Counted from the stretch's first letter, positions 1,978 through 60,548 are shown. The stretch: 64,000 nt of DNA from Fibrobacterota bacterium (GCA_029557215.1 JAKPQQ010000222.1:18481-82480), one strand, 5' to 3'. Program-made: numbers and translations. Notes: generated by a model from the sequence alone, not told the origin.

Positions 1978-7368
<5,391 letters not shown>

Positions 7369-23036: not shown

Positions 23037-24425
23037 CTAGAACACGATCCTTCGTTCGGTGCCGCGCCAGTAGATTCCCGGCGGAGCGCGGTGCAACCCA
23101 CCCTCGGGAACCACCCTGCCGCGCAGATCCTGCCAAGGCCCCGTCGGAACCCGATGCGCGGGCACCTTCGCGCGGATTCCGACCGGGGTCGGATCGTAGG
23201 CGGGGTGCTCCGACAACAGTTCCTGCACGACCTGGGATCGACGAGTCACGAAATCCCGGATTTCTGCCTGCGACCTTGGGAACCGGACGGTTTCCGAATC
23301 GACCAAGGCGCCTTTCACGACCGCCTCGAGCGAATCCACCCGGCGATGCAAGGACGATTCTTCCAGGTAGGTGCCCAAGGCCTTCTGGTATTCGCCCAAG
23401 TACATCCGACGCCAGGCTTCCACCTTCATCATCCGCTCGAACAGCGGCCGGGACTTGGTCTCCAGCTTGTTGGGACAGTAGGTCCTGGGCCAGTTCATGA
23501 AGAACAGTCCCGCCGACACCCCCATGTTGTTGAGGCAGTAGCGGCCGGTCTCGAAGGTCCCGTCCAGGTCCCAGGGGATGACGTTCCATCTTCCGTTCGC
23601 GGGGTCACGATACAGCCAATAGTTCTTGCCTCGATTGGGGTAGCCGTCCCAGTGTCCCACGAAATTGGCCACCACCAGGTAGCGGATGAACGCGTGGACC
23701 TCGAAGCGTTCGGGCAATCCCCGCTCGAACTCCGCGTCGGAACTGCTGTCGATCCATTCGATCCACCGCCGCAACGCCGAATGGTCCAGCGAGTCCAACC
23801 CCGAATTGTTGGTCTTCTTCTGGTAGTGCCGACCGTAGTCGGAGTCGTGCGTTCCGAGGTTCGTCAGCTCCCCGAAGAACGCGGGGGTTCCCGGAATGTC
23901 GGTGGCCGCCTTGTACAGATCGCCCGCCGACGACCCCCATGCCGCCTCCAGCCAAGGCTTGTTGTCGGGGTCCGGGAATTCCAGGTAGATCCCCGATCGG
24001 ACTCCGTTCACGTGCAGCTCCACGTGCCGCGACGGCATGGCCGGAACCCCCGCCGCCGCCATCAGATCCAGCGTCAATTTCTGACGAAGGTGGGGCTCGA
24101 GGTTGAAGTTCCACTCGCGGTATCCGCGGTACGGCGTCGCCTTGGCGGTCTTGACCTTCCAGTTGCGGGGACCGTCGCGGTCCTGCAGGAGGTTCCGCAG
24201 GCTGTAGGCCCCCCGGTAGCTCGCCGTCGCCTGGAACGTGTCCCCGGCCGACACGAAGCGGGCGGGCACCTTGCCGGCGAAGAATGGATCCGATTCCAGG
24301 TAGGCGATGTCGGCGGAATCGACGAGGATCTCCACGCGATCCAACGCGAATCCGCCACCGGCCAAGCACATCGGGAGCAGCATCCTGGCGATCCAGGTCT
24401 TTGGAATCGAGTAAACGCGATCCAT
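23037..24425 (-). CDS. CotH-family atypical protein kinase-like protein, secreted
   Basis: 462 aa from ATG M41; signal peptide; CotH-like core (YRDPANGRWNVIPWDLDGTF, NYWLY). Confidence 0.7.
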   Translation of the reverse strand: MDRVYSIPKTWIARMLLPMCLAGGGFALDRVEILVDSADIAYLESDPFFAGKVPARFVSAGDTFQATASYRGAYSLRNLLQDRDGPRNWKVKTAKATPYRGYREWNFNLEPHLRQKLTLDLMAAAGVPAMPSRHVELHVNGVRSGIYLEFPDPDNKPWLEAAWGSSAGDLYKAATDIPGTPAFFGELTNLGTHDSDYGRHYQKKTNNSGLDSLDHSALRRWIEWIDSSSDAEFERGLPERFEVHAFIRYLVVANFVGHWDGYPNRGKNYWLYRDPANGRWNVIPWDLDGTFETGRYCLNNMGVSAGLFFMNWPRTYCPNKLETKSRPLFERMMKVEAWRRMYLGEYQKALGTYLEESSLHRRVDSLEAVVKGALVDSETVRFPRSQAEIRDFVTRRSQVVQELLSEHPAYDPTPVGIRAKVPAHRVPTGPWQDLRGRVVPEGGLHRAPPGIYWRGTERRIVF

Positions 24426-24591
24426 GGGTAACAAAAGGGTACTGCCGGAACGTCCGCGCGGGTGGTCGTTTCGGCAAATCCCCGAACACGGCGCGTGCGC
24501 GATCGACCGGACCCGTGGAACCGTCGGCGTCCGGTATCGGGACACGACGGGAAACGGGGGAAAGGCTTGTCGACTTACACCGGCCTATTTC

Positions 24592-24610
24592 TTTGATCCT
24601 CTCCATCAAA
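24592..24610. promoter_or_regulatory. Inverted repeat TTTGAT-N7-ATCAAA in the 400-bp region upstream of the che operon
   Basis: Read from sequence; lies in the only AT-rich patch of the CotH/cheB divergent region. Confidence 0.25.
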
Positions 24611-24831
24611 TTTTTTGGCCATGCCGGTCGATTCGAGGTTCCCGCTGCGAGGCAGGCATCCTCTAGGCGACCAGGTCCCGGCCGAGACGAAAAGGTTTAT
24701 CAGGTCAAAGCACAAGTTACCGGAAGCGAACAAGCCCGGAAGGGAAGATACATCCGAACCCCGCCGGAAGGAAATCGGGAATTCCGGCCGCGATTGCGGA
24801 AAGGGCTCGTCGAGTGGTACGATCTGGCACC

Positions 24832-26070
24832 ATGGCCGAATCCGAATCCGACGACAGGCTGGACGTGCTGGTGGTGGACGACTCGCCCACCTACAGGATG
24901 ATCCTGTCGCGCACCCTGAAGGGCTGCCCGTTCGCGCGATTGGCGGGATCGGCCGTGGACGGCGAGGCGGCCCTGCTGGCCATCGCCGAAAAACGTCCGG
25001 ACCTGGTGCTGCTCGACGTCTCCATGCCCGTGCTGGACGGGATCGAAACGCTCAAGAGGATCCGCGCGAAATGGCACGACGTCGACGTCGTGATGTGCTC
25101 GGGCGTGGACCAGAACCAGACCGGGCTCACGATGCAGGCGCTCTCGCTGGGGGCGCTTGACTTCGTGCCCAAGCCGCAGGGCGACAACCCCGCCGAAAGC
25201 TTCGCCGCGCTGGGCGCGGCGCTGCATCCGCTCCTGGAGCTCGCCATGGGGCGACGCAACGCCAGGCGCGCGCGTTCGTCGCCCGCGAAAGCGATCCCGC
25301 GGCCACCCTCGCCGATCGGCGAAGCTCCACCGGCCCGCGCCGCTAGGCCGGAATCCGTCCATCCCGTCCCGACGGCCTCCGCGCCGGCTCCGACCTCGGC
25401 CAAGCCTCCGGTCGCGACCAGATCGTCGACGCTTCCGCAGGCCGTGCCGCCCACGGGAGGCCCGGGAAGGCGCCCCCCCGCCCGGGTCGAACTGGTCGTG
25501 GTCGGCGTGTCGACGGGCGGCCCCAACGCGCTCCAGGCCATGGTCCCGAGGATCCCGGAGGGGTTCCCCGCGCCGATCGTGTGCGTGCAGCACATGCCTC
25601 CGCTGTTCACCGCCTCGCTGGCCGAGCGGCTGGACCGCGCATCGAAGATCCGGGTGATGGAAGCCGCCGAAGGCATGGTCGCCCTCCCGGGACACATGTA
25701 CATCGCCCAGGGGGGCCGGCATCTCGACGTCGTGCGCGGCGCCGACGGCCGGTTCCGACTGAAGCTCCACGACGCGCCGCCTGTCAATTCCTGTCGACCC
25801 TCCGTGGACGTGCTGTTCGATTCCGCCGCCGCGCTGGGGATTCCCGGGATCGTGTCGGTGGTCCTCACCGGAATGGGCAGCGACGGCGCGGCGGGCGCGA
25901 GGAAGCTGCGCGAGAAGGGAGCCTGGTCGATCGCCCAGGACGAGGCGACCTCGGTGGTCTGGGGAATGCCCGGCGCGGTGGCCTCGCAGGGCCAGGCCGA
26001 CGAACTCCTGCCGCTGGAGAGGGTGGCCTCCAGGCTGGAGGAACTCGTCCGTTCCGGAGGCGCCAGATGA
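24832..26070 (+). CDS. cheB: Chemotaxis response regulator protein-glutamate methylesterase CheB
   Basis: REC (VLVVDDS..LLDVSMPVLDG) + Pro/Ala linker + methylesterase domain (VVVGVSTGGP, MPP..F, GMGSDGA). Confidence 0.88.
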   Translation: MAESESDDRLDVLVVDDSPTYRMILSRTLKGCPFARLAGSAVDGEAALLAIAEKRPDLVLLDVSMPVLDGIETLKRIRAKWHDVDVVMCSGVDQNQTGLTMQALSLGALDFVPKPQGDNPAESFAALGAALHPLLELAMGRRNARRARSSPAKAIPRPPSPIGEAPPARAARPESVHPVPTASAPAPTSAKPPVATRSSTLPQAVPPTGGPGRRPPARVELVVVGVSTGGPNALQAMVPRIPEGFPAPIVCVQHMPPLFTASLAERLDRASKIRVMEAAEGMVALPGHMYIAQGGRHLDVVRGADGRFRLKLHDAPPVNSCRPSVDVLFDSAAALGIPGIVSVVLTGMGSDGAAGARKLREKGAWSIAQDEATSVVWGMPGAVASQGQADELLPLERVASRLEELVRSGGAR

Positions 26071-26903
26071 AGCTGGCCGGGAACGAATTCGAACTTCTCA
26101 AGGGCTTCGTGGAGAAGCACTGCGGAATCCACCTGGAGCCCGGGAAGGAATACCTGATCGAGACCCGGCTCACGGACATCGCGATCGAGCACGAATGCAG
26201 GTCGTTCTTCGAGTTCTACCAGAAGGCGCTGGCCGACACCACCGGCAAGCTGCGCAACCGGATCGTCGACGCGATGACCACCAACGAGACCTACTTCTTC
26301 CGCGACGACAACCTCTGGACGTACATGAAGGAGGTCGCGGTCCCCGCGCTCCTGAAGAAGGCCGCGACGGGACCCGTGAGGGTCTGGTCGGCCGCGGCGT
26401 CCACCGGCCAGGAGGCGTACTCCATGGCGATGCTCTTCGACGAACTCGCCCGCGCCCAGGGAACCCCTTCCCTCTCGGGAAACCTCGAGATCCTGGGGAC
26501 CGACATCAGCTCGGCGGCGCTGTTCCTCGCCATCTCGGGGCGATACGATTCGCTCGCGATCCGGAGAGGACTGTCCGAGGAGCGACGACGCAGGTATTTC
26601 CAGGAGCACGGATCGGTCTGGGCGATCTCCGACGAGATCAAGTCGCGGGTCAAATTCCGTCGATTCAACCTCATGGATCCCTTCGCCCCGCTGGGGACGT
26701 TCGACCTGGTCCTGTGCCGCTACGTGGCGATCTACTTCCAGGACGACTTCAAGAAGGACATATTCCGGCGCATCGCCGGGGTCCTCAAGCCCGGCTGCCC
26801 GCTGCTGCTGGGGGCGACGGAGATCCTGCGGGACCTCAACGACGAATACGAACCCGTCCTCCACAAGAACTGCACCGCCTATGCGCGAAAGCCGGCGAGG
26901 TGA
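26067..26903 (+). CDS. cheR: Chemotaxis protein methyltransferase CheR
   Basis: 278 aa; ETYFFRD, VWSAAASTGQEAYS, CRYVAIYF motifs; ATGA overlap with cheB stop. Confidence 0.88.
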   Translation: MKLAGNEFELLKGFVEKHCGIHLEPGKEYLIETRLTDIAIEHECRSFFEFYQKALADTTGKLRNRIVDAMTTNETYFFRDDNLWTYMKEVAVPALLKKAATGPVRVWSAAASTGQEAYSMAMLFDELARAQGTPSLSGNLEILGTDISSAALFLAISGRYDSLAIRRGLSEERRRRYFQEHGSVWAISDEIKSRVKFRRFNLMDPFAPLGTFDLVLCRYVAIYFQDDFKKDIFRRIAGVLKPGCPLLLGATEILRDLNDEYEPVLHKNCTAYARKPAR

Positions 26904-26905
26904 CC

Positions 26906-27286
26906 ATGCGAATCCTCTCCATCGACGACTCGAACTCCATCCGGCACGCCGTGCGGAAGATGCTGGAAGTCATCGGCGCCGAATTCTTCGAGGGGCACGA
27001 CGGCCAGGAAGGGCTCGAGGTGCTCGAGAAGGAAGGTCCGGTCGACCTGATCCTGCTGGACATGGAGATGCCCCGCCTGGACGGGATGGGATTCCTGGAG
27101 GCGGTGAAGAAGGATCCCCGCTGGAAGGACATCCCCGTGATCGTGGTCTCCTCGATCGCCCAGAAGGAACGCATGATCCGCGCCGTCCAGGAAGGCGCCA
27201 AACAATACCTGACCAAACCGTTCACATCGGAGCAGCTCCTGACCAAGATCGTCGACGCCCTCCATCTCGACGGTGACGTCGAATGA
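26906..27286 (+). CDS. cheY: CheY-like single-domain response regulator
   Basis: 126 aa; DD..D..K receiver (ILSIDDS, LILLDMEMPRLDG, YLTKPF). Confidence 0.85.
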   Translation: MRILSIDDSNSIRHAVRKMLEVIGAEFFEGHDGQEGLEVLEKEGPVDLILLDMEMPRLDGMGFLEAVKKDPRWKDIPVIVVSSIAQKERMIRAVQEGAKQYLTKPFTSEQLLTKIVDALHLDGDVE

Positions 27287-28188
27287 CCCGCGCGGAGATC
27301 ATCCAGCGCCTGCAGGGCGACGTGAGCCTCCCGGCCCTGCCCGAGGTGCTCCTGCGCATCGACAGGATGCTCAAGGATCCGGAGGTCGACATCAAGGCCG
27401 TCTCGTCCCTCGCGTCCACCGACGCGGTCCTGTCGGGACAGATCATCCGGATGTCGAATTCCGCCTACTACGCCAGGGGCGGCTCCCACCTGACCTCCCT
27501 GCAGCCCGCGATCCAGCGCATGGGCCTGCGCGCGCTCCGAGGGCTGGTCTTCGCCCTGACGCTGCCCAGGATGTTCCACGACGACGGCGAAAGCTTCCCC
27601 TACAGGGCGCTCTGGAAGCACTCCCTGGCGGTGTCCGCGTTCGCCGCCGAGCTCGCGACGGAAATCGGCGCATCGCCGGCCGAGCGCGAGAACGCCTGGC
27701 TCGGCGGACTGGTCCACGACATCGGGGCGCTCGTCCTGGCCACGCTCCAACCCCGCGAATACCACCGTTTCCTGCAGGACCTCCAGGAACGCTCCGACCG
27801 GTCGGCCCAGTGGAACGAGCAGGAGCTTCCCGACTGGGAGCGCGAGACGTTCGGGATCGACCATGCCGAAATCGGCTGCATCTTCCTGCGCGAACGATGG
27901 CGCCTGCCCGAACCGATCCCGGAAATCACGCGGCTGCACCACAGCCTCGGATGGAACGAACCCTTGCCGGAAGGCGTCGAACGAAGCACCATCCTTGTCG
28001 TGCATGTCGCCAACGGAATCTGCTCGCACTACGGGATCGGCTGGAATCCGGCGGAACAGGAAGGCCGCGCCTTCCAGGAATCCGCCTGGGAAAGCCTCGG
28101 GCTCGACCTGGACCGGGTCGAAGAACTCCTGGAAAAGGCCAAGACCAGCCTCGGCATCGCGGAAACACTACTGAGCGAAGGAGAATGA
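27283..28188 (+). CDS. HDOD-domain signalling protein
   Basis: 301 aa; LPALPEVLLRIDRMLKDPEVD...GLVHDIGALVL pattern of the HDOD family; ATGA overlap with cheY. Confidence 0.75.
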   Translation: MTRAEIIQRLQGDVSLPALPEVLLRIDRMLKDPEVDIKAVSSLASTDAVLSGQIIRMSNSAYYARGGSHLTSLQPAIQRMGLRALRGLVFALTLPRMFHDDGESFPYRALWKHSLAVSAFAAELATEIGASPAERENAWLGGLVHDIGALVLATLQPREYHRFLQDLQERSDRSAQWNEQELPDWERETFGIDHAEIGCIFLRERWRLPEPIPEITRLHHSLGWNEPLPEGVERSTILVVHVANGICSHYGIGWNPAEQEGRAFQESAWESLGLDLDRVEELLEKAKTSLGIAETLLSEGE

Positions 28189-28532
28189 CCATGGACGCAT
28201 CCCTGCCCGTCCTGAGTCGAGACGAAGCCCTCGGGCGCCTGGAAGGCGACGTGGAGCTGTGGAACGAGATCCGGGACATCTGGCTCGAAGACGTGGCGAA
28301 CCTGATGGAAGGCGTCTCGAGAGCGCTGGAATCCGGCGTGCCCGACGCCCTCCGCCGCGCGGCCCACGCCCTGAAGGGGGCTTCGGCGAACGTCGGGGCC
28401 ACCCGCGTCGCGGCCCTCGCCAAGACGATCGAACTGGATGCGACCTCGGCGGATTGGGACGCCCTCCGCGAGGGCGTGGACCGGCTCCGCCGGGAAGTGG
28501 AGGACGCCCGGAGACAGCTGGAGACCGCATGA
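28185..28532 (+). CDS. Stand-alone Hpt phosphotransfer protein
   Basis: 115 aa; AAHALKGASANVGA phosphorylatable His motif; SD gaaggag; ATGA overlap. Confidence 0.7.
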   Translation: MTMDASLPVLSRDEALGRLEGDVELWNEIRDIWLEDVANLMEGVSRALESGVPDALRRAAHALKGASANVGATRVAALAKTIELDATSADWDALREGVDRLRREVEDARRQLETA

Positions 28533-29650
28533 ACAACCGCGACCCCAGGCAACCGCGGGTTCTGGTGGTCGACGACGAACGACAGAACCTGCAGATGCTT
28601 TCGGTGGTCCTGCGCAACGAAGGATATCTGGTCGACACGGCGGATTCCGGCGAGGCCGCGCTCGAGCGCGCGCGGTCCACCACCCCGGACCTCGTCCTCC
28701 TGGACATCCTGATGCCCGGGATGGACGGATTCGCCACCCTGGAACGGCTCAAGGGGATCGCGGGCGCATCGACGATTCCCGTCATCTTCCTGAGCGGCCT
28801 GGAAGACCTCGAAACCAAGCTCAAGGGCTTCTCGCTGGGCGCGGTGGACTACGTGACCAAGCCGTTCCACATCGAGGAGGTCCGCGCGCGCGTGCGGATC
28901 CACCTGCAACTGGCCCTGGCGCGCCAATCCCTGGTCCTGGAACAGGCATCCCGCCTCCGGAGCCTGGCCAGCGCCCAGAAGAGGCTGCAGGTCCTTCCGT
29001 CGGATCTTCCCGAGGCGAACTTCTCGGTGCTGTACGAATCCGCCCAGGAAGCCGGAGGCGACATCTACGACGTGCTCGCCGTCGGGAAAGGCATCCACGG
29101 GTTCCTCGTGGCGGACGTTTCCGGACACGACGTGGGCACGAGCCTGCTCGCGAGCGCCGCCAGGGCCCTGTTCCGGCAGAACACCGGACCCATGTACTCC
29201 CCCGAGGAGACGTTCAACCTGGTCAACCGCGTCCTCGCCGGCTGGCTGCCTCCCGGACGTTTCCTGACCGCATGCTACGCCCTGCTCAACCGCAACACGG
29301 GCAGGCTCTCGGTGGTCGGGGCGGCCCATCCTCCCGCGGCCATCCTGGACGCGTCGGGCAAGGCCCGCAGCCTGGACGTGGAAGGCGACGTGCTGGGCGC
29401 ATTCCCCGACGCGCGGTTCGGCCGGATCGACACCCGCGTCTCGAAAGGGGACCGCGTGGTCCTCTACACCGACGGCCTCGTCGAGAACATCGGCGGCGGC
29501 AGGACGTGGAACACCGAGGGGGATCGCGTCCTGCGCGAGCTCGAACGGCTCTCCGACGTCCCGCTCGGGGAGCTTCCCTCGCGCCTGTCGGCCGGACTTT
29601 CCGACGGCACGAGGGACGACGACGTGTTAGCGCTTGCTTTCGAGGTGTGA
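28529..29650 (+). CDS. Response regulator fused to PP2C/SpoIIE-type phosphatase (RsbU-like)
   Basis: 373 aa; REC (VLVVDDE..LLDILMPGMDG..KPF) then PP2C block (GGDIYDV, GFLVADVSGHDVGTS, LYTDGLVE). Confidence 0.8.
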   Translation: MNNRDPRQPRVLVVDDERQNLQMLSVVLRNEGYLVDTADSGEAALERARSTTPDLVLLDILMPGMDGFATLERLKGIAGASTIPVIFLSGLEDLETKLKGFSLGAVDYVTKPFHIEEVRARVRIHLQLALARQSLVLEQASRLRSLASAQKRLQVLPSDLPEANFSVLYESAQEAGGDIYDVLAVGKGIHGFLVADVSGHDVGTSLLASAARALFRQNTGPMYSPEETFNLVNRVLAGWLPPGRFLTACYALLNRNTGRLSVVGAAHPPAAILDASGKARSLDVEGDVLGAFPDARFGRIDTRVSKGDRVVLYTDGLVENIGGGRTWNTEGDRVLRELERLSDVPLGELPSRLSAGLSDGTRDDDVLALAFEV

Positions 29651-29693
29651 AGGCGGGACACTATCCCTCGCAACAAGTCGATGGAGGAGCCGA

Positions 29694-29990
29694 ATGATCC
29701 GGTCCCAGAGCGCGGGTGGAAAAACCAGCGTGGCGCCCGAAGGCAACGTCGGAACGCAGGAAGCCGAGCAGCTCGCGAAGGCCATGGAGGACGCGATCGC
29801 GCAAGGCGACGAAGTCGCCGTGGACCTTTCCGCCTGCCAGGCCCTCTCCTCGTCGGCGATCGGGGCCATGATCGCCTGCCACAACGCGCTTCGCGCCAAG
29901 GGATCCAGGCTCCGCGTGCACGGAACCGGCGAAGAGATCCTGCGGCTGCTGCGGATCATGCAGCTCGACCGCCATTTCGACATGGCCTGA
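29694..29990 (+). CDS. STAS-domain anti-sigma-factor antagonist (SpoIIAA/RsbV-like)
   Basis: 98 aa; SD ggagga; VAVDLSACQALSSSAIGAMIACHNALRAKGSRLRVHG. Confidence 0.75.
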   Translation: MIRSQSAGGKTSVAPEGNVGTQEAEQLAKAMEDAIAQGDEVAVDLSACQALSSSAIGAMIACHNALRAKGSRLRVHGTGEEILRLLRIMQLDRHFDMA

Positions 29991-29999
29991 GGAGGCGAG

Positions 30000-32900
30000 A
30001 TGCCCGCGATGGAAATCGACGAAACCCTGCAACTGTTCCTCGAGGAGGCGCGCGACCACCTGCGCGACATCGAGACGGATCTGCTCGCGATCGAGACGGA
30101 AACCGGCCCCGCCGACGTGGATCTGGTCAACAAGGTCTTCCGCGGCATCCACTCCATCAAGGGTGCGGCCGGGTTCTTCGGACTGAACCGGATCAAGGAG
30201 CTCTCCCACTCCATGGAGAACCTCCTGAACCGCATCCGCAACCTGGAGGTGGTTCCCGGCCGGACGGCCATCGAGGCCCTCCTGAAGTCGGCGGACGTCC
30301 TCAGTTCGATGGTGGAGGATCCCTCGCGAAGCGAAGACGTCGAGATCGGACGCCTGCTGGAACTCCTGCGCGACGCCAACGCGACGCGCTCCAAGGCATC
30401 CGCGACGGTCGACATCCCCGATCCCCAGGGACGCGTGATCTTCCGCATCCCGGAAGACGACCTCGAACTGGCCCGCAAGGGCGGGAAGAACCTCTTCGTG
30501 ATGTTCTTCGACATGGTCAAGGACATCGACGCCAAGGGGATGCATCCGCTGGGCCTGGTGAAGGAACTGGAGAAGACAGGCCTGATCGTCGAATCGCGCG
30601 TGGCCCACGACGCCGACGGGAACCTCCTGGGCGATGCGGGGTTCGTCCCGTTCCACGTGTTCTACGCGACCGTGCTCGACCACGAGATGACCTGCCTTCT
30701 CACCGGACTCCCCCCGTCCAGCGTGGTGGCCTTCGACGGAGAGCGCAAACCCGTCGCGGCCGGAAAGCTCGTCGCGGCCGCGAAGAAGGCCGCGCCGAAA
30801 CCTTCCAAACGCGCCAGCCAGGCGGCTCCGCCGCCGGAACGGAAGACCGCGCCATCCACTCCGGTCGCGGATCCCGTCGTGACGGAATCCGACAAACCGG
30901 AACCGGAGGCGATCCCGGCCGGGGCGACGCCGCGGGGCGCGGCGCAGGGGAACACCTCGCCGTCGTCGCTTCGCGTGAACGTGAAGTCGCTGGATCGCCT
31001 GATGACCCTGGCCGGCGAACTCGTCCTTTCCAGGAACCAGCTGGTCCAGAAGGTGGGCTCGAAGAACATCGCCGAGATCCAGGCCAGCTCCCAGGGCCTG
31101 TCCCTCATCATCTCCGAGCTGCAGGAGGCGGTGATGAGCACGCGCATGCAGCCGCTCTCGATGGTGTTCGGGAAGTTCCAGCGCGTCGTGCGGGATCTCG
31201 CCCAGGACCTCGGCAAGGAGATCCGCCTGGAAGTGGAAGGCGAGGACGTCGAACTCGACAAGGCGGTCATCGAATCGATCGGCGACCCGTTGACGCATCT
31301 TGTCCGCAACGCCGTGGACCACGGCATCGAGATGCCGGAGATCCGGGAACGCTCGGGCAAGCCCCGCCAGGCCGTGGTCAAGCTCCACGCCTACCACGAG
31401 GCGGGCAAGGTGGTGATCGACGTCTCCGACGACGGACGCGGCATCGACACCGACGCGGTGCGGGAAAAGGCCGCCGCGCAGAAGCTCGTGGACCCGCAGC
31501 ACCTGGCGAACATGACCGAGAAGGAGCTGGTCAACCTGATCTTCCTTCCGGGATTCTCCACCGCGAAGGTCGTCACCGACATCTCCGGACGCGGCGTCGG
31601 GATGGACGTCGTCAAGACCAACTTCACCAAGCTCGGCGGCGTCATCGACATCGAAAGCCGCCAAGGCCGGGGAACCAGGATCCGCGTCAAGCTCCCGCTC
31701 ACGCTGGCCATCATCCCGAGCCTTCTGGTTTCGGTCCAGGACGAGACCTACGCGATCCCGCAGGTGAACCTGGTGGAGCTGGTGCGCATCCCGGCCAAAG
31801 ACGTGCGCAACCGGATCGAGCGGATCGGGGACGCGCTCGTCATGCGACTCCGCGGCCACCTGCTCCCGCTGCTGAAGCTCTCGCAGGTGCTGGGGATCGC
31901 GACCCCCACCTTCGTCCACCCCGAATCCGGGGAACAGAAACCGGACCGGCGCACGCGCGTCGACGACCGGCGCGGCCCCCGGGAACGCGAGACTCCGGAA
32001 GAAAAGGAACGCCGCCGCAACGCGGACCGACGCTACCACTCCGAGAGCGCGATCAACATCGCGGTCCTGTCGGCCGGGACGTTCCAGTACGGACTGATCG
32101 TGGACCGCCTCCACGAGTCGGAAGAGATCGTCGTGAAACCGCTGGGAAGCCACTTCCGCAACTGTTCCTGCTACGCCGGAGCCACCATCCTGGGCGACGG
32201 CCGGGTCTCGCTGATCCTGGACGTGGTCGGCGTCACCCGGTACATGAACCTGTCGGACGTGGCCGGATCGGACAGGAGCCGCGACGAGGAGTCGAGGCAC
32301 AGACAGAAACTGCGCGACGCGCAGTCGATGCTGCTGTTCCGCGTCGCCGAACACGAGCAGTTCGCGGTCCCGCTCTCGCTGGTCTCGCGGCTGGAGGTGA
32401 TCCCGCGCGCATCCATCGAGAAGATCGGCGGCCGCAGGACCATCCAGTACCGAGGCGGCAGCCTGCCGCTGCTGGAACTGTCGGAGGTGTCGCAGGTGCA
32501 CCCCCTCCCCGACCAGGACGAGTACTTCGTGGTGGTCTACGCGGTGGGCGGCAAGGAAGTGGGCCTGATCGTGTCGCGGATCGTCGACATCGTCGAAGCC
32601 TCGGTGGAGTTCGACGAGTCCACGTTCGCGCAACCCGGGATCATCGGATCGACGATCCTGTCGAACCACACCACGCTCCTGGTGGATCTCTACGACGTGG
32701 TCAAGACCAGCCTCCCCGGCCTGGTCAAGGCGCCGGAGCTGGACGCGGGAAGGACCGGAAAGGTCCTCGTGGTCGACGATTCGCCGTTCTACAGGCGCCA
32801 GATCGCGGGATACCTCAAGGAGTGCGGGCTCGAGGTGGTCGAAGCCGTCAACGGCGACGAGGCGCTCGCCCTGCTGGAAACGACCGGCGGGATCGGGCTC

Positions 32901-33131
32901 GTCCTCACCGACGTGGAAATGCCCGTCATGGACGGACTGGAACTGACCCGGCGCGTCCGTTCCATCGAGTCCCTGCGCCACCTCCCCGTGGTGGCCATCA
33001 CCTCGCTGTCCGGGGAAGAGGCCGAACGCCGCGGGCGCGAGGCGGGGGTCGACGGCTACCTGGTCAAGCTCGACCGCGAAAAGATCCTCGCCGAAGTCGA
33101 AAAACTCCTCCTGCGCAGGGGGCACCGATGA
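30000..33131 (+). CDS. cheA: Chemotaxis histidine kinase CheA with two CheW-like domains and a C-terminal receiver (CheA-CheY hybrid)
   Basis: 1043 aa; P1 Hpt (FRGIHSIKGAAGFFG), P3/P4 (HLVRNAVDHGIE, DDGRGID, GRGVGMDVVK), two CheW-like blocks, REC (VLVVDDSPFYRR..TDVEMPVMDG). Confidence 0.9.
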   Translation: MPAMEIDETLQLFLEEARDHLRDIETDLLAIETETGPADVDLVNKVFRGIHSIKGAAGFFGLNRIKELSHSMENLLNRIRNLEVVPGRTAIEALLKSADVLSSMVEDPSRSEDVEIGRLLELLRDANATRSKASATVDIPDPQGRVIFRIPEDDLELARKGGKNLFVMFFDMVKDIDAKGMHPLGLVKELEKTGLIVESRVAHDADGNLLGDAGFVPFHVFYATVLDHEMTCLLTGLPPSSVVAFDGERKPVAAGKLVAAAKKAAPKPSKRASQAAPPPERKTAPSTPVADPVVTESDKPEPEAIPAGATPRGAAQGNTSPSSLRVNVKSLDRLMTLAGELVLSRNQLVQKVGSKNIAEIQASSQGLSLIISELQEAVMSTRMQPLSMVFGKFQRVVRDLAQDLGKEIRLEVEGEDVELDKAVIESIGDPLTHLVRNAVDHGIEMPEIRERSGKPRQAVVKLHAYHEAGKVVIDVSDDGRGIDTDAVREKAAAQKLVDPQHLANMTEKELVNLIFLPGFSTAKVVTDISGRGVGMDVVKTNFTKLGGVIDIESRQGRGTRIRVKLPLTLAIIPSLLVSVQDETYAIPQVNLVELVRIPAKDVRNRIERIGDALVMRLRGHLLPLLKLSQVLGIATPTFVHPESGEQKPDRRTRVDDRRGPRERETPEEKERRRNADRRYHSESAINIAVLSAGTFQYGLIVDRLHESEEIVVKPLGSHFRNCSCYAGATILGDGRVSLILDVVGVTRYMNLSDVAGSDRSRDEESRHRQKLRDAQSMLLFRVAEHEQFAVPLSLVSRLEVIPRASIEKIGGRRTIQYRGGSLPLLELSEVSQVHPLPDQDEYFVVVYAVGGKEVGLIVSRIVDIVEASVEFDESTFAQPGIIGSTILSNHTTLLVDLYDVVKTSLPGLVKAPELDAGRTGKVLVVDDSPFYRRQIAGYLKECGLEVVEAVNGDEALALLETTGGIGLVLTDVEMPVMDGLELTRRVRSIESLRHLPVVAITSLSGEEAERRGREAGVDGYLVKLDREKILAEVEKLLLRRGHR

Positions 33132-33583
33132 CCCAGACGGAAACCGTCGCGAACACCGACAACCTGGAACTCACCGTCTTTTCCGTGGGCGACCTGCTCT
33201 GCGCGCTGCCGAACTCCTCGGTGCGCGAGATCTCGGGATTGCGGTCGATCACCAAGGTCCACCACGCGGCCCCGCAGGTCCGCGGGGTGGTGAACCTTCG
33301 AGGACAGATCATGACCGTCCTGGACCTGGGGATCCGGTTCGGGATCGGCCCGGTTCCCGAAGACCGCAAGGCGCGCATCCTCGTGGTGCGGTCGGGCGAA
33401 GAGGACATCGGGCTTCTCGTGGACGGGGTCGACGACGTGATGAACGCGCCGCGGACCGACCTGGAGCCGCCGCCTTCGAACGTCGGAGGCATTTCGGGAA
33501 GCTACTTCCGGGCGATCCTCAAGAACCGCGACGACCTGGTCTGCCTCCTGGACCTGGACCGGATCCTGTCCGACGGCGACTGA
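33128..33583 (+). CDS. cheW: Chemotaxis coupling protein CheW
   Basis: 151 aa; LTVFSVGDLLCALPNSSVREI..VVNLRGQIMTVLDL; ATGA overlap with cheA. Confidence 0.85.
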   Translation: MTQTETVANTDNLELTVFSVGDLLCALPNSSVREISGLRSITKVHHAAPQVRGVVNLRGQIMTVLDLGIRFGIGPVPEDRKARILVVRSGEEDIGLLVDGVDDVMNAPRTDLEPPPSNVGGISGSYFRAILKNRDDLVCLLDLDRILSDGD

Positions 33584-33604: not shown

Positions 33605-34498
33605 TCAATCCGGACAAGCGACTCCGGTCGGCGGGGAAGGCGCTCGCAGGAAGCGCACGCCGCCCTTCGGGACCTCGCTCTTCGCCTGGTCCGCCCGCGA
33701 CAACAGCCGGTCGCCACCTTCGCCACCGGAATACGTCGTGACGCCGATCGACACGGGAAGTTCCATCCCCGACCGCGCGAAGCCTTCCCGCAGGGCCCGC
33801 TCCACCACGTCCACGCGCTCCTGCGCCGCGCGCTCGTCGGCCCCGAGCCAGAGGATCACGAACTCGCCTTCCCCCCAGCGAAAAAGCCAATCCGAAGGTT
33901 TCGCGCACCCCTGGATCAGGGTCGCGGCCTGGCGCAGCGCTTCGTCGACGGCGACCTTCCCGAAATCGACTCGCATCTTGCGCAGCCCCCCGATTTCCAC
34001 CACGGACAAGGACAGGGGATCCCCGTAGCGATCGCACCTCTGGGATTCGGATTCCAGGGTTTCGGCCAGCAGGAGGCGGTTTCCCACTCCCGTGAGCGTG
34101 TCGGTCCGGGATTGCATCTCGAGTTCCCGATTGCGCTTGCGCAGCACCGACTGGATCTCCTGCAACTCCTGGACGGCCTCCGCGCCGCGCAGAAGTTCGC
34201 GTTCGAGCAGATGGACCCGGCGCAGGCCCAGGCCGCAGATGCACAGCAGCACAACCACGGCGACCTCGAGGACGATCCCGACCGGACCGTGCGACCGGGA
34301 CGCGTCGCCGAACAAGGACGATGCGAGATGGACGACCAGCCCGCCCAGGATCAGCGCAAGGATCGACCATGCGGCGATCCGGGCGACCGAGCGATGCCAA
34401 CGACGCCCTTCGACGCCGGGGTCGAGCGAGCGATCGTTCTCCGTCGCGGAACGCGACAGGCCGGGAACGTTCCGATGGATTTCCAGCACGACATCCAT
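33605..34498 (-). CDS. Membrane-anchored GGDEF diguanylate cyclase
   Basis: 297 aa from internal ATG (M67); TM segments then GGDEF-related RWGEGEFVIL and upstream DTLTGVGNR. Confidence 0.7.
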   Translation of the reverse strand: MDVVLEIHRNVPGLSRSATENDRSLDPGVEGRRWHRSVARIAAWSILALILGGLVVHLASSLFGDASRSHGPVGIVLEVAVVVLLCICGLGLRRVHLLERELLRGAEAVQELQEIQSVLRKRNRELEMQSRTDTLTGVGNRLLLAETLESESQRCDRYGDPLSLSVVEIGGLRKMRVDFGKVAVDEALRQAATLIQGCAKPSDWLFRWGEGEFVILWLGADERAAQERVDVVERALREGFARSGMELPVSIGVTTYSGGEGGDRLLSRADQAKSEVPKGGVRFLRAPSPPTGVACPD

Positions 34499-34589
34499 GA
34501 TAGTTCCGAAAAGAGGATCCAAGAATCCTTCGGGTCCGCGACCTGTCAAAAAATGTTCGCAGCCCGTCCTTCGGGGGATCGGGCTGGCC

Positions 34590-35846
34590 TCAAGGCTTCC
34601 GGAACGCCTCCACCATGGCCCCCAGCTCCGTCCCCAGGCGGGAGAGGACTTCGGACTGCTCGCCGACGAGTCTGGCGTCGCTTTCGATGACCGCAAGCGG
34701 CGCCTGCAATTCGCCGATCACCGATGTCGTTTCGGACAGCTTCAGACCGGATTCGGTGACGACCTCCGAAATCGTGGCGGCCTGTTCGTCCACGAACTTG
34801 ACGTTGGCGGAGATCTCTGCGATGGTTCCTGTCTGCTTGCGGACGCGCTCCTCGATCCCGCGCGACATCCGGTCGACTTCGTCGACCTTCCCGCTGATCC
34901 TCTGCATCGCGTCCACCGCAGAACGCGTGGCCGCCTGGATCGACACCACCATGTCCCGGATCTTCTCGGTGGAACGCGCGGTCTGGCTGGAAAGCTCCTT
35001 GACTTCCCCGGCCACGACGGCGAATCCCTTCCCGGCCTCGCCGGCCCTCGCCGCTTCGATGGTGGCGTTCAAGGCCAACAACCGCGTCCGCGCGGCGATC
35101 GCCTGGATTTCGGAAAGGATCCCTCCGATGGCTTCGGCCTCGCGGCTGAGTCCGACCATCACGTCCGTCGCCGCCCCGGCCTCCTCGCGCGCCTTGCCCG
35201 CCAACTGCACCTCGTCCACGCAGGTGCCGGCGACGTCGGTGAGCGAACGCGCGATCTCGTCGGCCGACGAGGAAAGCATCCCGATGCACGCCGACACGTC
35301 CTGCAGGGAACCCGAGATCCCCGCGAGATCGTTCGACGCCGTTCTCGTGGCCTCCATCACCTTCGCGGAAGTCCGCTCCATGGCCTCGATCTGCTCCGGC
35401 ATCCTGGCGGAAAAACCGGCCAGGTCGTTGGCGGCGGCGGTCAGCGGTTCCGCCCGACCGGCCAGAGGGTCGACCAGCGACTGGAGGCGCCCCATGACCG
35501 TGTTGAAATCGTTGGCGATGGCCACGATGTCGTCGTAGCCCTGGACCTCGATCCGGACCCCGATCCCTCCGCCGTCCGACGCCAGATGACGCAATCTGCC
35601 CGCAATGCCCTCGACGGGCGCCACGGCGCGCGCCACGAGCCTCCAGGTAACGAACCCCGCGAGCCCGGCCACCAGGAGGCTCCAGCCGAACCCCCGCCAG
35701 GACGCCCCCGCGAACAGGAGCACAGCCAGATCAGAAAGCACCAGTCCGGACAGCGCCGGGGCGAGCACGCGCCACCGGAGCCCGATCTTCCTCCGCTCGG
35801 CCTGGAGGCGGATCCACCGCGGATCCCTTTTCCACGACATCGACAT
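34590..35846 (-). CDS. mcp: Methyl-accepting chemotaxis protein (2 TM + HAMP + MA domain)
   Basis: 418 aa; SD ggagg; highly conserved MCP signalling hairpin RTRLLALNATIEAARAGEAGKGFAVVAGEVKELS. Confidence 0.8.
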   Translation of the reverse strand: MSMSWKRDPRWIRLQAERRKIGLRWRVLAPALSGLVLSDLAVLLFAGASWRGFGWSLLVAGLAGFVTWRLVARAVAPVEGIAGRLRHLASDGGGIGVRIEVQGYDDIVAIANDFNTVMGRLQSLVDPLAGRAEPLTAAANDLAGFSARMPEQIEAMERTSAKVMEATRTASNDLAGISGSLQDVSACIGMLSSSADEIARSLTDVAGTCVDEVQLAGKAREEAGAATDVMVGLSREAEAIGGILSEIQAIAARTRLLALNATIEAARAGEAGKGFAVVAGEVKELSSQTARSTEKIRDMVVSIQAATRSAVDAMQRISGKVDEVDRMSRGIEERVRKQTGTIAEISANVKFVDEQAATISEVVTESGLKLSETTSVIGELQAPLAVIESDARLVGEQSEVLSRLGTELGAMVEAFRKP

Positions 35847-35866
35847 GGAAACCTCCGGCGACGGGT

Positions 35867-38266: not shown

Positions 38267-38302
38267 TTGGGTATCCTCCGGATTCCTGCTCGTAACCGAT
38301 TC

Positions 38303-42071: not shown

Positions 42072-42094
42072 TGGACGCTCCGGGACCTGGGTGG

Positions 42095-42475
42095 TCAGTT
42101 GAAGACTTCGTCGACCGATTGCTTGAAGTCTTCCACGAACAGGGGGTCGGAGAACTTGAGGGGTTTTTCCACGTAGCCCTTGGCGCCGCGGTTCAGGCAT
42201 TCCAGCACCGTGTTCCCCTTGACCGCCGAGATGACCATGATCCGCGCGTCGGCGAACTCGGTGAGGATCTCGTTGATCGCGGTCTTGCCGTCCTTGTTGG
42301 GCATGGTGAGGTCCATGGTGACAAGATCCGGCTTGTGCTTGCGGTAGAGATCCACTGCCTCGTTGCCGTCCTTGCCGATCGCCACGACCTGGAAACCCAG
42401 TTGGGAGGTGAAGAACTCGGCGATCTGCTTCGACAGGAAGCTGGAATCGTCCACGATCAGGACCGTCTTGGGCAT
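42095..42475 (-). CDS. CheY-like single-domain response regulator
   Basis: 126 aa from ATG M8 (SD aggagg); VLIVDDS..LVTMDLTMPNKDG..GYVEKPL. Confidence 0.85.
   Translation of the reverse strand: MPKTVLIVDDSSFLSKQIAEFFTSQLGFQVVAIGKDGNEAVDLYRKHKPDLVTMDLTMPNKDGKTAINEILTEFADARIMVISAVKGNTVLECLNRGAKGYVEKPLKFSDPLFVEDFKQSVDEVFN

Positions 42476-58115: not shown

Positions 58116-58126
<11 letters not shown>
56477..58126 (-). CDS. Family-4 (GT1-fold) glycosyltransferase with C-terminal extension
   Basis: 549 aa; FVSPVDNQQETFGIAVVEAMASGLPVVASRWDGYKDLVEDGATG is the classic GT4 E-x7-E nucleotide-sugar motif region; start overlaps the upstream HK stop by 11 nt. Confidence 0.7.

Positions 58127-60548
<2,422 letters not shown>

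What the first reader, a model, noticed from the sequence alone, without database searches (positions are those of the whole stretch)
24832..33583. Chemotaxis operon with embedded partner-switching output (REC-PP2C + STAS)
cheB-cheR-cheY-HDOD-Hpt-(REC/PP2C)-STAS-cheA(2xCheW-like, REC)-cheW form one operon. A response-regulator/RsbU-type phosphatase and an anti-sigma antagonist sit between the chemotaxis genes. The arrangement resembles the Shewanella Che3/CrsR-CrsA module, which routes a Che-type kinase to sigma-factor (RpoS) control through partner switching. No anti-sigma kinase (RsbW-like) is encoded in the cluster. An HDOD protein and a free Hpt add further phosphorelay branches.
Basis: partly seen in the sequence, partly recalled or inferred. 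Interest (0 to 1): 0.7.

Follow-up and report, generated by a model that had tools for sequence, protein, structure and literature searches.

The report
Chemotaxis operon with kinase-less partner switch
An uncultured flagellated Fibrobacteria bacterium carries a tightly packed nine-gene chemotaxis operon that also holds a phosphorelay protein, a receiver-regulated serine phosphatase and its anti-sigma-antagonist-like substrate but not the usual partner kinase, which makes it an untested variant of a known way to couple chemoreceptor signalling to a protein switch.

Summary
Window 24832-33583 (+) holds nine translationally coupled genes: cheB, cheR, cheY, HDOD, free Hpt, REC-PP2C, STAS, cheA (Hpt-dimerisation-HATPase-CheW-CheW-REC) and cheW. 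The window comes from a Fibrobacteria MAG.

The same nine-gene order recurs in about ten distinct loci, with proteins 39-87% identical.

A phosphatase/STAS pair inside a che cluster is already known for F7 systems. CrsR/CrsA lie in Shewanella che1, not che3, and CrsR carries a kinase domain that is absent here. The CheA architecture is the one typical of F5 systems. The Hpt-REC-PP2C-STAS trio has the gene order of P. aeruginosa hptB-hsbR-hsbA.

Of 68 related metagenomic loci, 51 have an RsbW-like kinase gene directly after the phosphatase gene. The window's clade lacks it and always has HDOD. Its STAS loop is changed from DSxG to an invariant LSSSAIG, with the acceptor Ser kept. The PP2C catalytic residues are invariant.

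Most likely mechanism (inferred): CheA/CheA-REC passes phosphate to Hpt and then to REC-PP2C, which dephosphorylates STAS. The kinase and the STAS target are unlinked and unknown.

This is a new variant of a known kind, of moderate interest.

A 6S-RNA-like gene sits just upstream of cheB.

The parts
24806..24831 (+). Putative promoter abutting the cheB start: an extended -10-like TGGTACGAT 8 nt before the ATG, which suggests a leaderless or near-leaderless mRNA.
   Evidence: Sequence read. The deeper relatives L095 and L111 have TTGACA-N17-TATGAT/TAGAAT just before their cheB ATG. The consensus scan found no canonical sigma-70 site, so this part is inference only.
24832..26070 (+). cheB, 412 aa: receiver, long Pro/Ala-rich linker, methylesterase.
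   Evidence: Pfam Response_reg 1.9e-22 and CheB_methylest 1.5e-61. 55-63% identical in full-length orthologous loci.
26067..26903 (+). cheR, 278 aa, methyltransferase.
   Evidence: Pfam CheR_N and CheR. 4-nt overlap with cheB.
26906..27286 (+). cheY, 126 aa, single-domain receiver.
   Evidence: Pfam Response_reg 3.8e-25. 63-87% identical in orthologous loci.
27283..28188 (+). HDOD protein, 301 aa, stand-alone.
   Evidence: Pfam HDOD 6.4e-44 and HD 1.8e-07. GLVHD(I/V)GAL and an HH pair are invariant in orthologues. Present in 8 of 8 kinase-less loci.
28185..28532 (+). Free histidine phosphotransfer protein, 115 aa (113 aa if the second ATG is used).
   Evidence: Pfam Hpt 9.5e-16. The motif AH(A/S)(L/I)KG(A/S)SxNVGA with the phospho-His is invariant in orthologues. 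4-nt overlaps with both neighbours.
28529..29650 (+). REC-PP2C response-regulator serine phosphatase, 373 aa.
   Evidence: Pfam Response_reg 2.9e-29 and SpoIIE 1.4e-31. D15, D16, D59 and K111 of the receiver and GGD178, D196xxGH200, D315-G316 and D364-D365 of the phosphatase are invariant in 37 homologues. AF2 pLDDT 88.7 with a 38-residue linker helix. Best PDB matches are P. aeruginosa RssB and the Rv1364c RsbU domain.
29694..29990 (+). Single-domain STAS protein, 98 aa, of the anti-sigma-antagonist type with an atypical LSSSAIG loop.
   Evidence: Pfam STAS_2 2e-12 and STAS 1.6e-09. AF2 pLDDT 90.1 with a helix starting at S53. Foldseek: RsbV TM 0.89, SpoIIAA TM 0.91. S53 aligns with the phospho-Ser of RsbV and TM1442. 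L51, S52, S53, S54 and G57 are invariant in 27 homologues.
30000..33131 (+). Hybrid cheA, 1043 aa: P1 (Hpt), no recognisable P2, P3, P4, CheW split by an insert, second CheW, C-terminal receiver.
   Evidence: Pfam. The HSIKG motif in P1 and the DD/D/T/K residues in the receiver were read. The same architecture occurs in 19 of 20 complete related loci.
33128..33583 (+). cheW, 151 aa.
   Evidence: Pfam CheW 2e-33. 4-nt overlap with cheA.

Best explanation
This is a single operon of a flagellated, uncultured Fibrobacteria bacterium. It encodes a complete chemosensory core with F5-type CheA architecture: CheA-CheW-CheW-REC, CheW, CheB, CheR and CheY. An HptB/HsbR/HsbA-like trio (free Hpt, REC-PP2C phosphatase, STAS protein) and an HDOD protein are built into it.

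Shown:
- The genes, their domains and their coupling.
- Conservation of every phospho-acceptor and catalytic residue.
- Conservation of the whole arrangement across lineages.
- Homologous clusters elsewhere almost always carry an RsbW-type Ser kinase/anti-sigma gene between the phosphatase and STAS genes.

Inferred:
- Chemoreceptors encoded elsewhere control CheA.
- CheA~P feeds CheY (flagellar motor) and CheB (adaptation).
- Phosphate also passes through the C-terminal receiver of CheA and the free Hpt (His-Asp-His-Asp) to Asp59 of the REC-PP2C protein.
- Receiver phosphorylation acts through the long linker helix to switch on the phosphatase.
- The phosphatase removes phosphate from Ser53 of the STAS protein.
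- Dephospho-STAS then captures a partner that is not encoded nearby. Candidates are an anti-sigma factor such as an unlinked RsbW-like protein or FlgM, or a c-di-GMP enzyme.

In this clade the cognate kinase gene has left the operon or was never in it. The STAS phosphorylation loop has co-changed from DSxG to an invariant LSSSAIG. The writer of the phosphate must therefore be unlinked and probably has a different specificity.
For: Operon and domains.

Conservation: the identical nine-gene order occurs in L001, L003, L095/L096, L111, L170 and L171, with partial copies in L090 and L092. Proteins are 39-87% identical.

Functional residues: the receiver and PPM residues are invariant in 37 homologues. 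The phospho-His of Hpt is invariant. STAS Ser53 is invariant in 27 homologues and lies at the N-terminus of the helix, as in SpoIIAA and RsbV.

Related loci: the arrangement REC-PP2C, RsbW, STAS, then CheA occurs in 35 loci; where the contig runs on, the CheA is P1-P3-P4-W-W-REC and is followed by CheW and usually CheB and CheR. An Hpt is adjacent or nearby in 12 of 20 complete loci. CheA carries a C-terminal REC in 19 of 20.

Structure: the model resembles REC-PP2C RssB of P. aeruginosa and shows the long linker helix. PMC12143880 describes such a linker as the regulatory element of RsbU-type phosphatases.

Precedents: hybrid kinases pass phosphate to HptB, then HsbR-REC; the phosphatase turns on and HsbA is dephosphorylated (PMC5085249; PMC6482189).

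Flagellar context: flgF, flgG and flgA lie directly upstream, and the two-CheW-plus-REC CheA architecture is typical of F5.
Against: - No step of the phosphotransfer has been measured.
- No RsbW-type kinase was found in the window genes scanned, or within 10 kb in four other lineages. The phosphorylated state of STAS is therefore assumed.
- The residues flanking the acceptor Ser (Asp-1 and Gly+2), invariant in 41 kinase-linked relatives, are replaced here. This could mean loss of phosphorylation.
- In V. vulnificus, an F7 system, a two-hybrid test found no CheA2-RsbU interaction (data not shown in PMC10107281).
- My Hpt profile finds an Hpt in only 12 of 20 complete relatives.
- No receptor gene is in the operon, and the adjacent MCP is not conserved next to it.
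- F5 class membership was inferred from architecture only.
Confidence: 0.55

Rival explanations
1. The trio is co-located but insulated. Hpt, REC-PP2C and STAS form an HptB-type pathway fed by other hybrid histidine kinases, for example the PAS-HisKA-HATPase-REC protein at 7531-9765 or the HisKA-HATPase-REC protein at 58116-60506. The genes share the che operon only for co-expression with motility genes, and CheA does not phosphorylate this branch.
For: In P. aeruginosa HptB is fed by unlinked hybrid kinases, and the hptB cluster merely sits beside flagellar and chemotaxis genes (PMC5085249). No CheA2-RsbU interaction was seen in V. vulnificus. Two hybrid kinases are present in the window.
Against: STAS is followed directly by a CheA gene in 35 of 36 divergent kinase-linked loci and in all 8 kinase-less ones. 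Start and stop codons overlap across the Hpt/PP2C junction, and only 9 nt separate STAS from cheA. The CheA itself is a hybrid kinase with a C-terminal REC in 19 of 20 loci, which is exactly what an Hpt needs as a donor.
Confidence: 0.2
2. The switch has been rewired and is independent of a kinase and of any sigma factor. In this clade the STAS protein is no longer cycled by an RsbW-type kinase. Together with the HDOD protein and the phosphatase it acts on the signalling array, the flagellar apparatus or a c-di-GMP enzyme. For example, STAS could bind CheA's extra CheW domain, HDOD or a GGDEF protein. The triple-Ser loop would then be a binding surface or the target of a different kinase.
For: The kinase gene is absent in a monophyletic clade. 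In the same clade the canonical DSxG loop is replaced by an invariant LSSSAIG and HDOD is present in 8 of 8 loci. STAS proteins are known to bind non-sigma partners: HsbA-P binds the cyclase HsbD, and PMC9239204 proposes STAS acting on a chemoreceptor or on c-di-GMP enzymes. HDOD proteins affect motility in several species (PMC11004494).
Against: The PP2C catalytic residues remain invariant in the kinase-less clade, which implies that a phospho-substrate still exists. The acceptor Ser itself is retained. The association of HDOD with kinase loss is a single evolutionary event. The GGDEF neighbour is not conserved.
Confidence: 0.17
3. The protein is an RssB-like adaptor. The REC-PP2C protein would be a pseudo-phosphatase that delivers or sequesters a protein when phosphorylated, as E. 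coli RssB does with RpoS, and STAS would act as an anti-adaptor.
For: The best full-length structural matches are the RssB proteins. PMC12143880 notes shared regulatory features of RssB and RsbU.
Against: E. coli RssB has a truncated, inactive PPM domain. Here the domain is full length, and all four Asp-containing motifs are invariant across 37 homologues.
Confidence: 0.04
4. The PP2C and STAS genes are non-functional remnants of a partner switch, decaying after loss of the kinase.
For: The kinase is missing and the STAS loop is non-canonical.
Against: Both genes are intact. They are conserved at 39-63% identity across about ten distinct loci, with invariant functional residues, and no frameshifts or stop codons.
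Confidence: 0.02

Closest known systems
HptB-HsbR-HsbA pathway of Pseudomonas aeruginosa (PA3345-PA3347)
   Same: The gene order is the same: free Hpt, a response regulator with a PP2C domain, then a STAS anti-anti-sigma protein, in one operon beside flagellar genes. The logic is a hybrid kinase passing phosphate to Hpt and then to REC, which turns the phosphatase on and dephosphorylates STAS (PMC5085249; PMC6482189).
   Different: HsbR has a third domain, a kinase/anti-sigma domain, that is absent here. The upstream kinases in Pseudomonas are classical hybrid sensor kinases, whereas here the obvious donor is a hybrid CheA encoded immediately downstream. The HsbA targets (FlgM, HsbD, HsbR) are not identified here.
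CrsR-CrsA in the Shewanella oneidensis che1 (F7) cluster, and the RsbU/RsbV pair in Vibrio F7 clusters
   Same: A receiver-regulated PP2C phosphatase and a STAS protein are encoded inside a chemosensory gene cluster (PMC9855816; PMC7184735; PMC10107281).
   Different: Those clusters are class F7. They carry cheD and Aer2/McpA receptor genes, their CheA has no duplicated CheW, and they have no free Hpt and no HDOD. CrsR carries the kinase/anti-sigma domain and targets RpoS.
Uncharacterised metagenomic clusters: (Hpt)-REC-PP2C-RsbW-STAS-CheA(W-W-REC)-CheW-CheB-CheR, e.g. Deltaproteobacteria MAG L005 and Fundidesulfovibrio magnetotacticus L006
   Same: The phosphatase (about 38-47% identity over the PP2C domain), STAS, CheA architecture, CheW, CheB and CheR are orthologous.
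   Different: They carry an RsbW-like HATPase_c_2 gene, or a fused domain as in L007, between the phosphatase and STAS. Their STAS loop is the canonical DSxG. cheB and cheR lie after cheW, and HDOD is usually absent.
RsbK-RsbY-RsbV-RsbW of Bacillus cereus
   Same: It has a two-domain REC-PP2C phosphatase (RsbY) that is activated by phosphotransfer from a hybrid kinase. That kinase is itself paired with a CheR-like methyltransferase. The RsbKY phosphotransfer is from PMC9912610; the domain details are from my own knowledge of de Been et al. 2010, which is cited in PMC12143880.
   Different: RsbW and SigB are encoded alongside, and there is no CheA, CheW or free Hpt.
F5-class chemotaxis systems (Azospirillum brasilense Che1, Rhodospirillum centenum Che1, Azorhizobium caulinodans)
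   Same: CheA has two CheW domains and a C-terminal receiver and no P2. The split first CheW domain is the feature noted for Desulfobacteraceae CheAs (PMC10782961).
   Different: The accounts of these systems that I read mention no phosphatase, STAS, Hpt or HDOD genes in them. Class membership of the window's CheA was not tested phylogenetically.
RssB of P. aeruginosa (PDB 3f7a/3eq2)
   Same: It is the best full-length structural match: REC, helical linker, PPM domain.
   Different: Sequence identity is only 21-23%. It lies in a different genomic context; from my own knowledge it is paired with a STAS gene, rssC.

Membership tests
Partner-switching module (RsbU/SpoIIE phosphatase, RsbV/SpoIIAA antagonist, RsbW/SpoIIAB kinase/anti-sigma) | PPM/PP2C serine phosphatase with intact metal-binding Asp motifs | tested here: met
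   Pfam SpoIIE 110 bits. The motifs GGD178, D196xxGH, TD315G and D364D365 align with Rv1364c and RssB and are invariant in 37 homologues. The fold matches Rv1364c, SiaA, RsbX and SpoIIE.
Partner-switching module (RsbU/SpoIIE phosphatase, RsbV/SpoIIAA antagonist, RsbW/SpoIIAB kinase/anti-sigma) | Single-domain STAS antagonist with a phosphorylatable Ser at the N-terminus of the helix | tested here: met
   STAS_2 47.6 bits. TM 0.89-0.91 to RsbV and SpoIIAA. S53 aligns with the RsbV and TM1442 phospho-Ser, starts helix 53-68 and is invariant. Caveat: the flanking residues of the DSxG motif are replaced by S/T/C and A.
Partner-switching module (RsbU/SpoIIE phosphatase, RsbV/SpoIIAA antagonist, RsbW/SpoIIAB kinase/anti-sigma) | GHKL-type Ser kinase/anti-sigma factor (Pfam HATPase_c_2) encoded with the pair | tested here: not met
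   The PP2C-STAS gap is 43 nt (16-107 nt in orthologues), which leaves no room for a gene. No HATPase_c_2 hit appeared in any scanned gene of the window or within 10 kb in L001, L003, L170 and L171. The rest of the genome could not be searched.
Partner-switching module (RsbU/SpoIIE phosphatase, RsbV/SpoIIAA antagonist, RsbW/SpoIIAB kinase/anti-sigma) | A target sigma factor or other switch partner | not testable with these tools
   No sigma-factor gene was recognised in the window.
CrsR/HsbR-type three-domain response regulators (REC-PP2C-kinase/anti-sigma) | C-terminal kinase/anti-sigma (GHKL) domain fused to REC-PP2C | tested here: not met
   The protein has 373 aa and ends with the last PPM motif. 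Relatives with the fusion are 510-527 aa (P0082, P0093, P0099; L007).
CrsR/HsbR-type three-domain response regulators (REC-PP2C-kinase/anti-sigma) | Free Hpt gene upstream and STAS gene downstream in one operon (the hptB-hsbR-hsbA order) | tested here: met
   Gene order and overlaps. Reference order from PMC5085249.
F7 chemosensory class (Shewanella Che1, V. cholerae cluster III) | Cluster with cheD and Aer2/McpA-type receptor genes; CheA with a single CheW domain | tested here: not met
   No cheD or MCP gene lies among the nine genes. CheA has two CheW domains plus REC. The F7 gene content is taken from PMC7184735.
F5 chemosensory class | CheA with duplicated CheW domain, usually with a C-terminal receiver and without P2 | tested here: met
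   Pfam on CheA segments. According to PMC10782961, 99% of F5 CheAs have a duplicated CheW domain and almost all two-CheW CheAs are F5.
F5 chemosensory class | Placement of the P3-P4-P5 core with the class-specific profiles or phylogeny (MiST/Wuichet-Zhulin) | not testable with these tools
   No class profiles or reference F5 sequences were available.
Two-domain REC-PP2C response regulators (RsbY / P. aeruginosa RssB type) | Receiver with acidic pocket, phospho-Asp and Lys; helical linker; PPM domain | tested here: met
   D15, D16, D59 and K111 are invariant. The linker helix spans 115-152. The top PDB hits are full-length RssB 3f7a and 3eq2.

The most novel reading that the evidence does not exclude
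In this Fibrobacteria clade a chemoreceptor-driven partner switch works without an RsbW-type kinase/anti-sigma factor. The STAS protein, with its invariant triple-serine loop, would be written by a different kind of kinase or not phosphorylated at all. With the always co-occurring HDOD protein it would form a new output module, controlling motility or c-di-GMP rather than a sigma factor. That would be a mechanistically new form of partner switching hard-wired to an F5-type chemosensory array.
Probability: 0.18. Interest if true: 0.75.

Novelty: new variant of a known kind. Interest (0 to 1): 0.55.

Why it matters
How chemosensory arrays talk to the phosphatase/STAS pairs found in some che clusters is unresolved even in the studied F7 systems. 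The Che1-RpoS link in Shewanella is still 'could be', and no CheA-RsbU interaction was seen in V. vulnificus.

The family described here has a hybrid CheA-REC, often a free Hpt next to the phosphatase, and a strictly conserved STAS-cheA junction in dozens of loci. It suggests a concrete wiring, a His-Asp-His-Asp relay, that can be tested in vitro.

The kinase-less Fibrobacteria variant is a natural experiment. The phosphatase and the acceptor Ser are retained, while the loop is remodelled and HDOD is present. It shows what a partner switch needs in order to work. It also gives HDOD, a domain of unknown function, a defined genetic context.

Tried and rejected
1. The genome-contig scan with the full-length REC-PP2C alignment was swamped by generic receiver-domain patterns. 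The PP2C-only alignment on metagenome contigs worked.

2. CotH kinase (23037-24383, minus strand) as the missing STAS kinase: rejected. It is absent upstream of the operon in L001, L003, L170 and L171.

3. The adjacent GGDEF and MCP genes as conserved partners (an HsbD analogy): not conserved next to the operon in other lineages.

4. The Hanks-type kinase at 14981-16651: it lies 8 kb away and is unlinked. No evidence.

5. Sigma-28 and sigma-54 promoter patterns upstream of cheB: none found.

6. The conserved sequence upstream of cheB as a 5' leader or riboswitch: rejected in favour of a minus-strand 6S-like RNA.

7. A P2 domain in the 225-aa P1-P3 linker of CheA: no Pfam hit.

8. Literature: no description of PP2C/STAS genes in non-F7 che clusters was found. 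The Geobacter che survey mentions none. Three papers were not held.

9. Whether the MAG has an unlinked RsbW could not be tested.

Full report
**1. What is there**

The window has about 66% G+C. Third-position GC and a self-trained codon model give one unambiguous set of nine + strand genes between 24832 and 33583. JGI's gene calls for the same contig agree.

All Pfam assignments exceed the curated cut-offs:
- CheB (REC + methylesterase)
- CheR
- CheY
- an HDOD protein
- a 115-aa Hpt protein
- a 373-aa REC-SpoIIE/PP2C protein
- a 98-aa STAS protein
- a 1043-aa CheA (Hpt, H-kinase_dim, HATPase_c, CheW, Response_reg)
- CheW

Five of the eight junctions are 4-nt overlaps. The others are 2, 9 and 43 nt. 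No terminator-like site on the + strand lies inside the cluster. The flanking genes are on the other strand.

CheA has two CheW domains. The first is split by a charged insert of about 50 residues. No P2 domain is recognisable.

**2. Source organism**

The exact protein sequences of the window are in NCBI as proteins of a 'Fibrobacteria bacterium' MAG. HQF54983.1 is the phosphatase. The CheA, HQF54985.1, is annotated there as 'CheW'. The contig also appears in JGI metagenome 3300009676.

Flagellar rod genes flgF, flgG and flgA lie upstream, and a flagellin gene lies at 54047-54856. The organism is therefore flagellated.

**3. Conservation**

The same nine genes in the same order occur in these loci:
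- another Fibrobacteria MAG, GCA_020633825.1 (L001)
- metagenome contigs L003/L004
- L095/L096 and L111, with partial copies in L090 and L092
- L170 and L171

The flanking genes differ among these loci. Protein identities to the window range from 39% (STAS in L095/L111) to 87% (CheY in L003). In L170 the operon directly follows flgF-flgG-flgA on the same strand.

**4. The wider family**

I scanned the metagenome collection with a PP2C-only alignment. I annotated the 80 resulting loci with profiles built from the window and its first relatives.

Of 68 loci with at least 900 nt downstream of the phosphatase gene:
- 51 have an RsbW-like HATPase_c_2 gene directly after the phosphatase gene. Precomputed Pfam confirms PF13581 in L005, L006 and L007.
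- In 36 of those 51 a STAS gene follows, and in 35 of those a CheA gene. Where the contig runs on, the CheA has the architecture P1-P3-P4-CheW-CheW-REC and is followed by CheW and usually CheB and CheR.
- In L007 and two other proteins the kinase is fused to the phosphatase, the CrsR/HsbR architecture.
- Eight loci, including the window, lack the kinase. There the PP2C-STAS gap is only 16-107 nt, and all eight have HDOD and a free Hpt upstream.

The kinase-less loci form one clade in a neighbour-joining tree of the phosphatase. With midpoint rooting the direction of change, loss or gain, cannot be decided.

No HATPase_c_2 protein is encoded among the window genes scanned with Pfam. None lies within 10 kb of the operon in four other lineages.

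**5. State of the parts**

*Phosphatase.* Across 37 homologues the receiver residues D15, D16, D59 and K111 are invariant. So are the PPM motifs GGD178, D196xxGH200, D315-G316 and D364-D365. These motifs align with the corresponding motifs of Rv1364c and P. aeruginosa RssB. An AlphaFold model (pLDDT 88.7) shows REC, a 38-residue helix (115-152) and a PPM domain. Its best PDB matches are full-length P. aeruginosa RssB, the RsbU domain of Rv1364c (rmsd 2.6 Å), SiaA, RsbX and SpoIIE. A crossing helical linker is the regulatory element proposed for RsbU-type phosphatases, including receiver-regulated ones (PMC12143880).

*STAS.* The model (pLDDT 90.1) superposes on RsbV and SpoIIAA with TM 0.89-0.91. 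Ser53 aligns with the phosphorylated Ser of RsbV and TM1442 and starts the helix.

The surrounding loop differs systematically between the two kinds of cluster:
- All 41 STAS proteins from kinase-containing clusters have (V/I)DSxG(I/L)G.
- All 10 from kinase-less clusters have L(S/T/C)SSAIG.

In 27 database homologues of the window's STAS (48-74% identity), L51, S52, S53, S54 and G57 are invariant. The acceptor Ser is thus kept under strong constraint while its flanks have changed together with the loss of the linked kinase.

*Other components.* The free Hpt keeps its HxxKG histidine in all orthologues. HDOD keeps an HD-like GLVHD motif. CheA P1 has HSIKG, and its C-terminal receiver has the full set of receiver residues (sequence read).

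**6. Mechanism**

Every element needed for a His-Asp-His-Asp relay is encoded next to the phosphatase and intact: CheA P1, CheA-REC, Hpt and the phosphatase's REC. CheA carries the C-terminal receiver in 19 of 20 complete related loci. An Hpt, free or fused to REC, is detectable near the phosphatase in 12 of 20.

This is the logic shown experimentally for P. aeruginosa. Hybrid kinases phosphorylate HptB, which phosphorylates the HsbR receiver. That switches HsbR to phosphatase mode and dephosphorylates HsbA. HsbA then binds FlgM, while HsbA-P binds HsbR and the cyclase HsbD (PMC5085249; PMC6482189).

I therefore propose that receptor-controlled CheA drives two outputs:
- CheY and CheB, for motility and adaptation.
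- The relay to the phosphatase, which sets the phosphorylation state of STAS Ser53.

The phosphotransfer, the phosphatase activity, the identity of the kinase and the STAS partner are all inferred.

**7. Comparison with known systems**

PP2C/STAS pairs in che clusters are documented for class F7:
- V. cholerae-type 'stage 1' clusters (PMC7184735).
- V. vulnificus che2, where a CheA2-RsbU two-hybrid test was negative (PMC10107281).
- Shewanella che1, with CrsR/CrsA regulating RpoS (PMC9855816; PMC6482189).

Che3 is the Shewanella chemotaxis system and CrsR/CrsA belong to che1.

The window's system is not F7-like. It has no cheD and no receptor genes, and its CheA has two CheW domains plus REC. 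That architecture belongs almost exclusively to class F5. The split first CheW domain has been noted in Desulfobacteraceae CheAs (PMC10782961).

Within the literature I could search, I found no description of phosphatase/STAS genes in non-F7 che clusters.

RpoS as a target is unlikely in Fibrobacterota. This rests on my own knowledge of RpoS distribution and was not tested.

**8. Verdict**

The finding is real. It belongs to a large, uncharacterised family of chemosensory clusters with F5-type CheA architecture that carry a partner-switching module. The window represents a clade-specific variant without the kinase/anti-sigma gene, with a remodelled STAS loop and with an HDOD protein.

It is a new variant of a known kind. 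The interest is moderate (0.55). The general idea is known, but this family offers a testable wiring for an unresolved link, and the kinase-less variant is a real puzzle.

**9. Side findings**

*A 6S-like RNA.* The roughly 450-nt region between CotH and cheB contains an element of about 175 nt. It is 80% conserved (mean column identity) in five lineages whose upstream genes all differ. It matches Rfam 6S RNA end to end on the minus strand, in the window (27 bits, E 0.0015) and independently in L001 (26.9 bits, E 0.0013). Both scores are below the gathering score of 46.4. The consensus fold on the minus strand is a 54-pair rod with 13 compensatory pairs and several G-U pairs, at -55.7 kcal/mol. 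The plus strand gives -41.2 kcal/mol and C-A mismatches at those positions.

*Promoter.* cheB seems to have its promoter immediately before the ATG.

*A second signalling module.* Convergent with the operon lies an unusual module on the minus strand. It consists of REC, CheX-Hpt-HATPase, two proteins without Pfam hits, and a two-TM HAMP-Hpt-HATPase CheA-like kinase without a CheW domain, followed by an MCP and a GGDEF protein. Part of it recurs next to the operon in L003/L004.

Noticed in passing
window 24563-24736, minus strand; also L001 6088-6260 (-), L003 ~6030-6205, L170 ~4785-4960, L171 ~4810-4985: An element of about 175 nt lies immediately upstream of, and divergent from, cheB. It matches Rfam 6S/SsrS RNA over the full model (27 bits, E about 0.001, below the gathering score). 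It is 80% conserved in five lineages whose upstream genes all differ. On the minus strand it folds into a rod with 13 compensatory pairs. It is probably the divergent 6S RNA of this Fibrobacteria group, and it is oddly always linked to the che operon.
   Followed up: partly
window 33605-42475, minus strand; L003 15607-20127: A second, unusual signalling cluster lies convergent with the operon. Its parts are REC (42095-42475), CheX-Hpt-HATPase (39948-42071), two proteins without Pfam hits (39265-39951 and 38303-39277), a two-TM HAMP-Hpt-HATPase (35867-38266), an MCP with two TM segments and almost no periplasmic loop (34590-35846), and a membrane GGDEF protein (33605-34498). The two kinases are CheA-like (P1 and P4) but lack a CheW domain. 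The block REC / unknown / unknown / HAMP-Hpt-HATPase also follows the che operon in L003/L004.
   Followed up: partly
window 24806-24831; L095/L096/L111 just upstream of cheB: The operon's promoter appears to abut the start codon. The window has an extended -10-like TGGTACGAT 8 nt before the ATG, and L095 and L111 have TTGACA-N17-TATGAT/TAGAAT directly before theirs. This suggests a leaderless or nearly leaderless cheB mRNA.
   Followed up: no
L006 2123-3259 (Fundidesulfovibrio magnetotacticus); also L106, L132-L134, L139, L148, L150, L160, L161: In some kinase-containing relatives CheA is split. A separate protein carrying P1 follows STAS; in L006 Pfam calls it Hpt + STAS_2. In L006 and L106 a second protein then carries its own Hpt, P3-P4 and CheW. 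In L006 there are also REC-HDOD and REC-HD_5 genes downstream.
   Followed up: no
window 23037-24383, minus strand: A CotH-family (atypical protein kinase) gene sits between flgA and the 6S-like RNA/che operon in the window. It is absent at this position in the close relative L170, where flgA is followed directly by the conserved element and cheB. It looks like a local insertion.
   Followed up: partly
window 1978-7368 (+) and 47211-49643 (-): There is a 1796-aa UvrA-like protein, about twice the usual length, with three ABC_tran stretches plus UvrA_inter and UvrA DNA-binding domains. A second UvrA-like protein of 810 aa lies next to a small cluster of REC, two small unknown proteins and a KaiC-like ATPase (49649-51373).
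   Followed up: no
window 30000-33131: The public annotation of this 1043-aa hybrid CheA (NCBI HQF54985.1) is 'chemotaxis protein CheW', which is a mis-annotation.
   Followed up: yes
window 7531-9765 (+), 11027-13504 (-), 14981-16651 (-), 58116-60506 (-): The window is dense in other signalling genes: two hybrid histidine kinases (PAS-HisKA-HATPase-REC and HisKA-HATPase-REC), a PAS-GGDEF-EAL protein and a Hanks-type Ser/Thr kinase. The hybrid kinases are alternative possible donors for the free Hpt.
   Followed up: no
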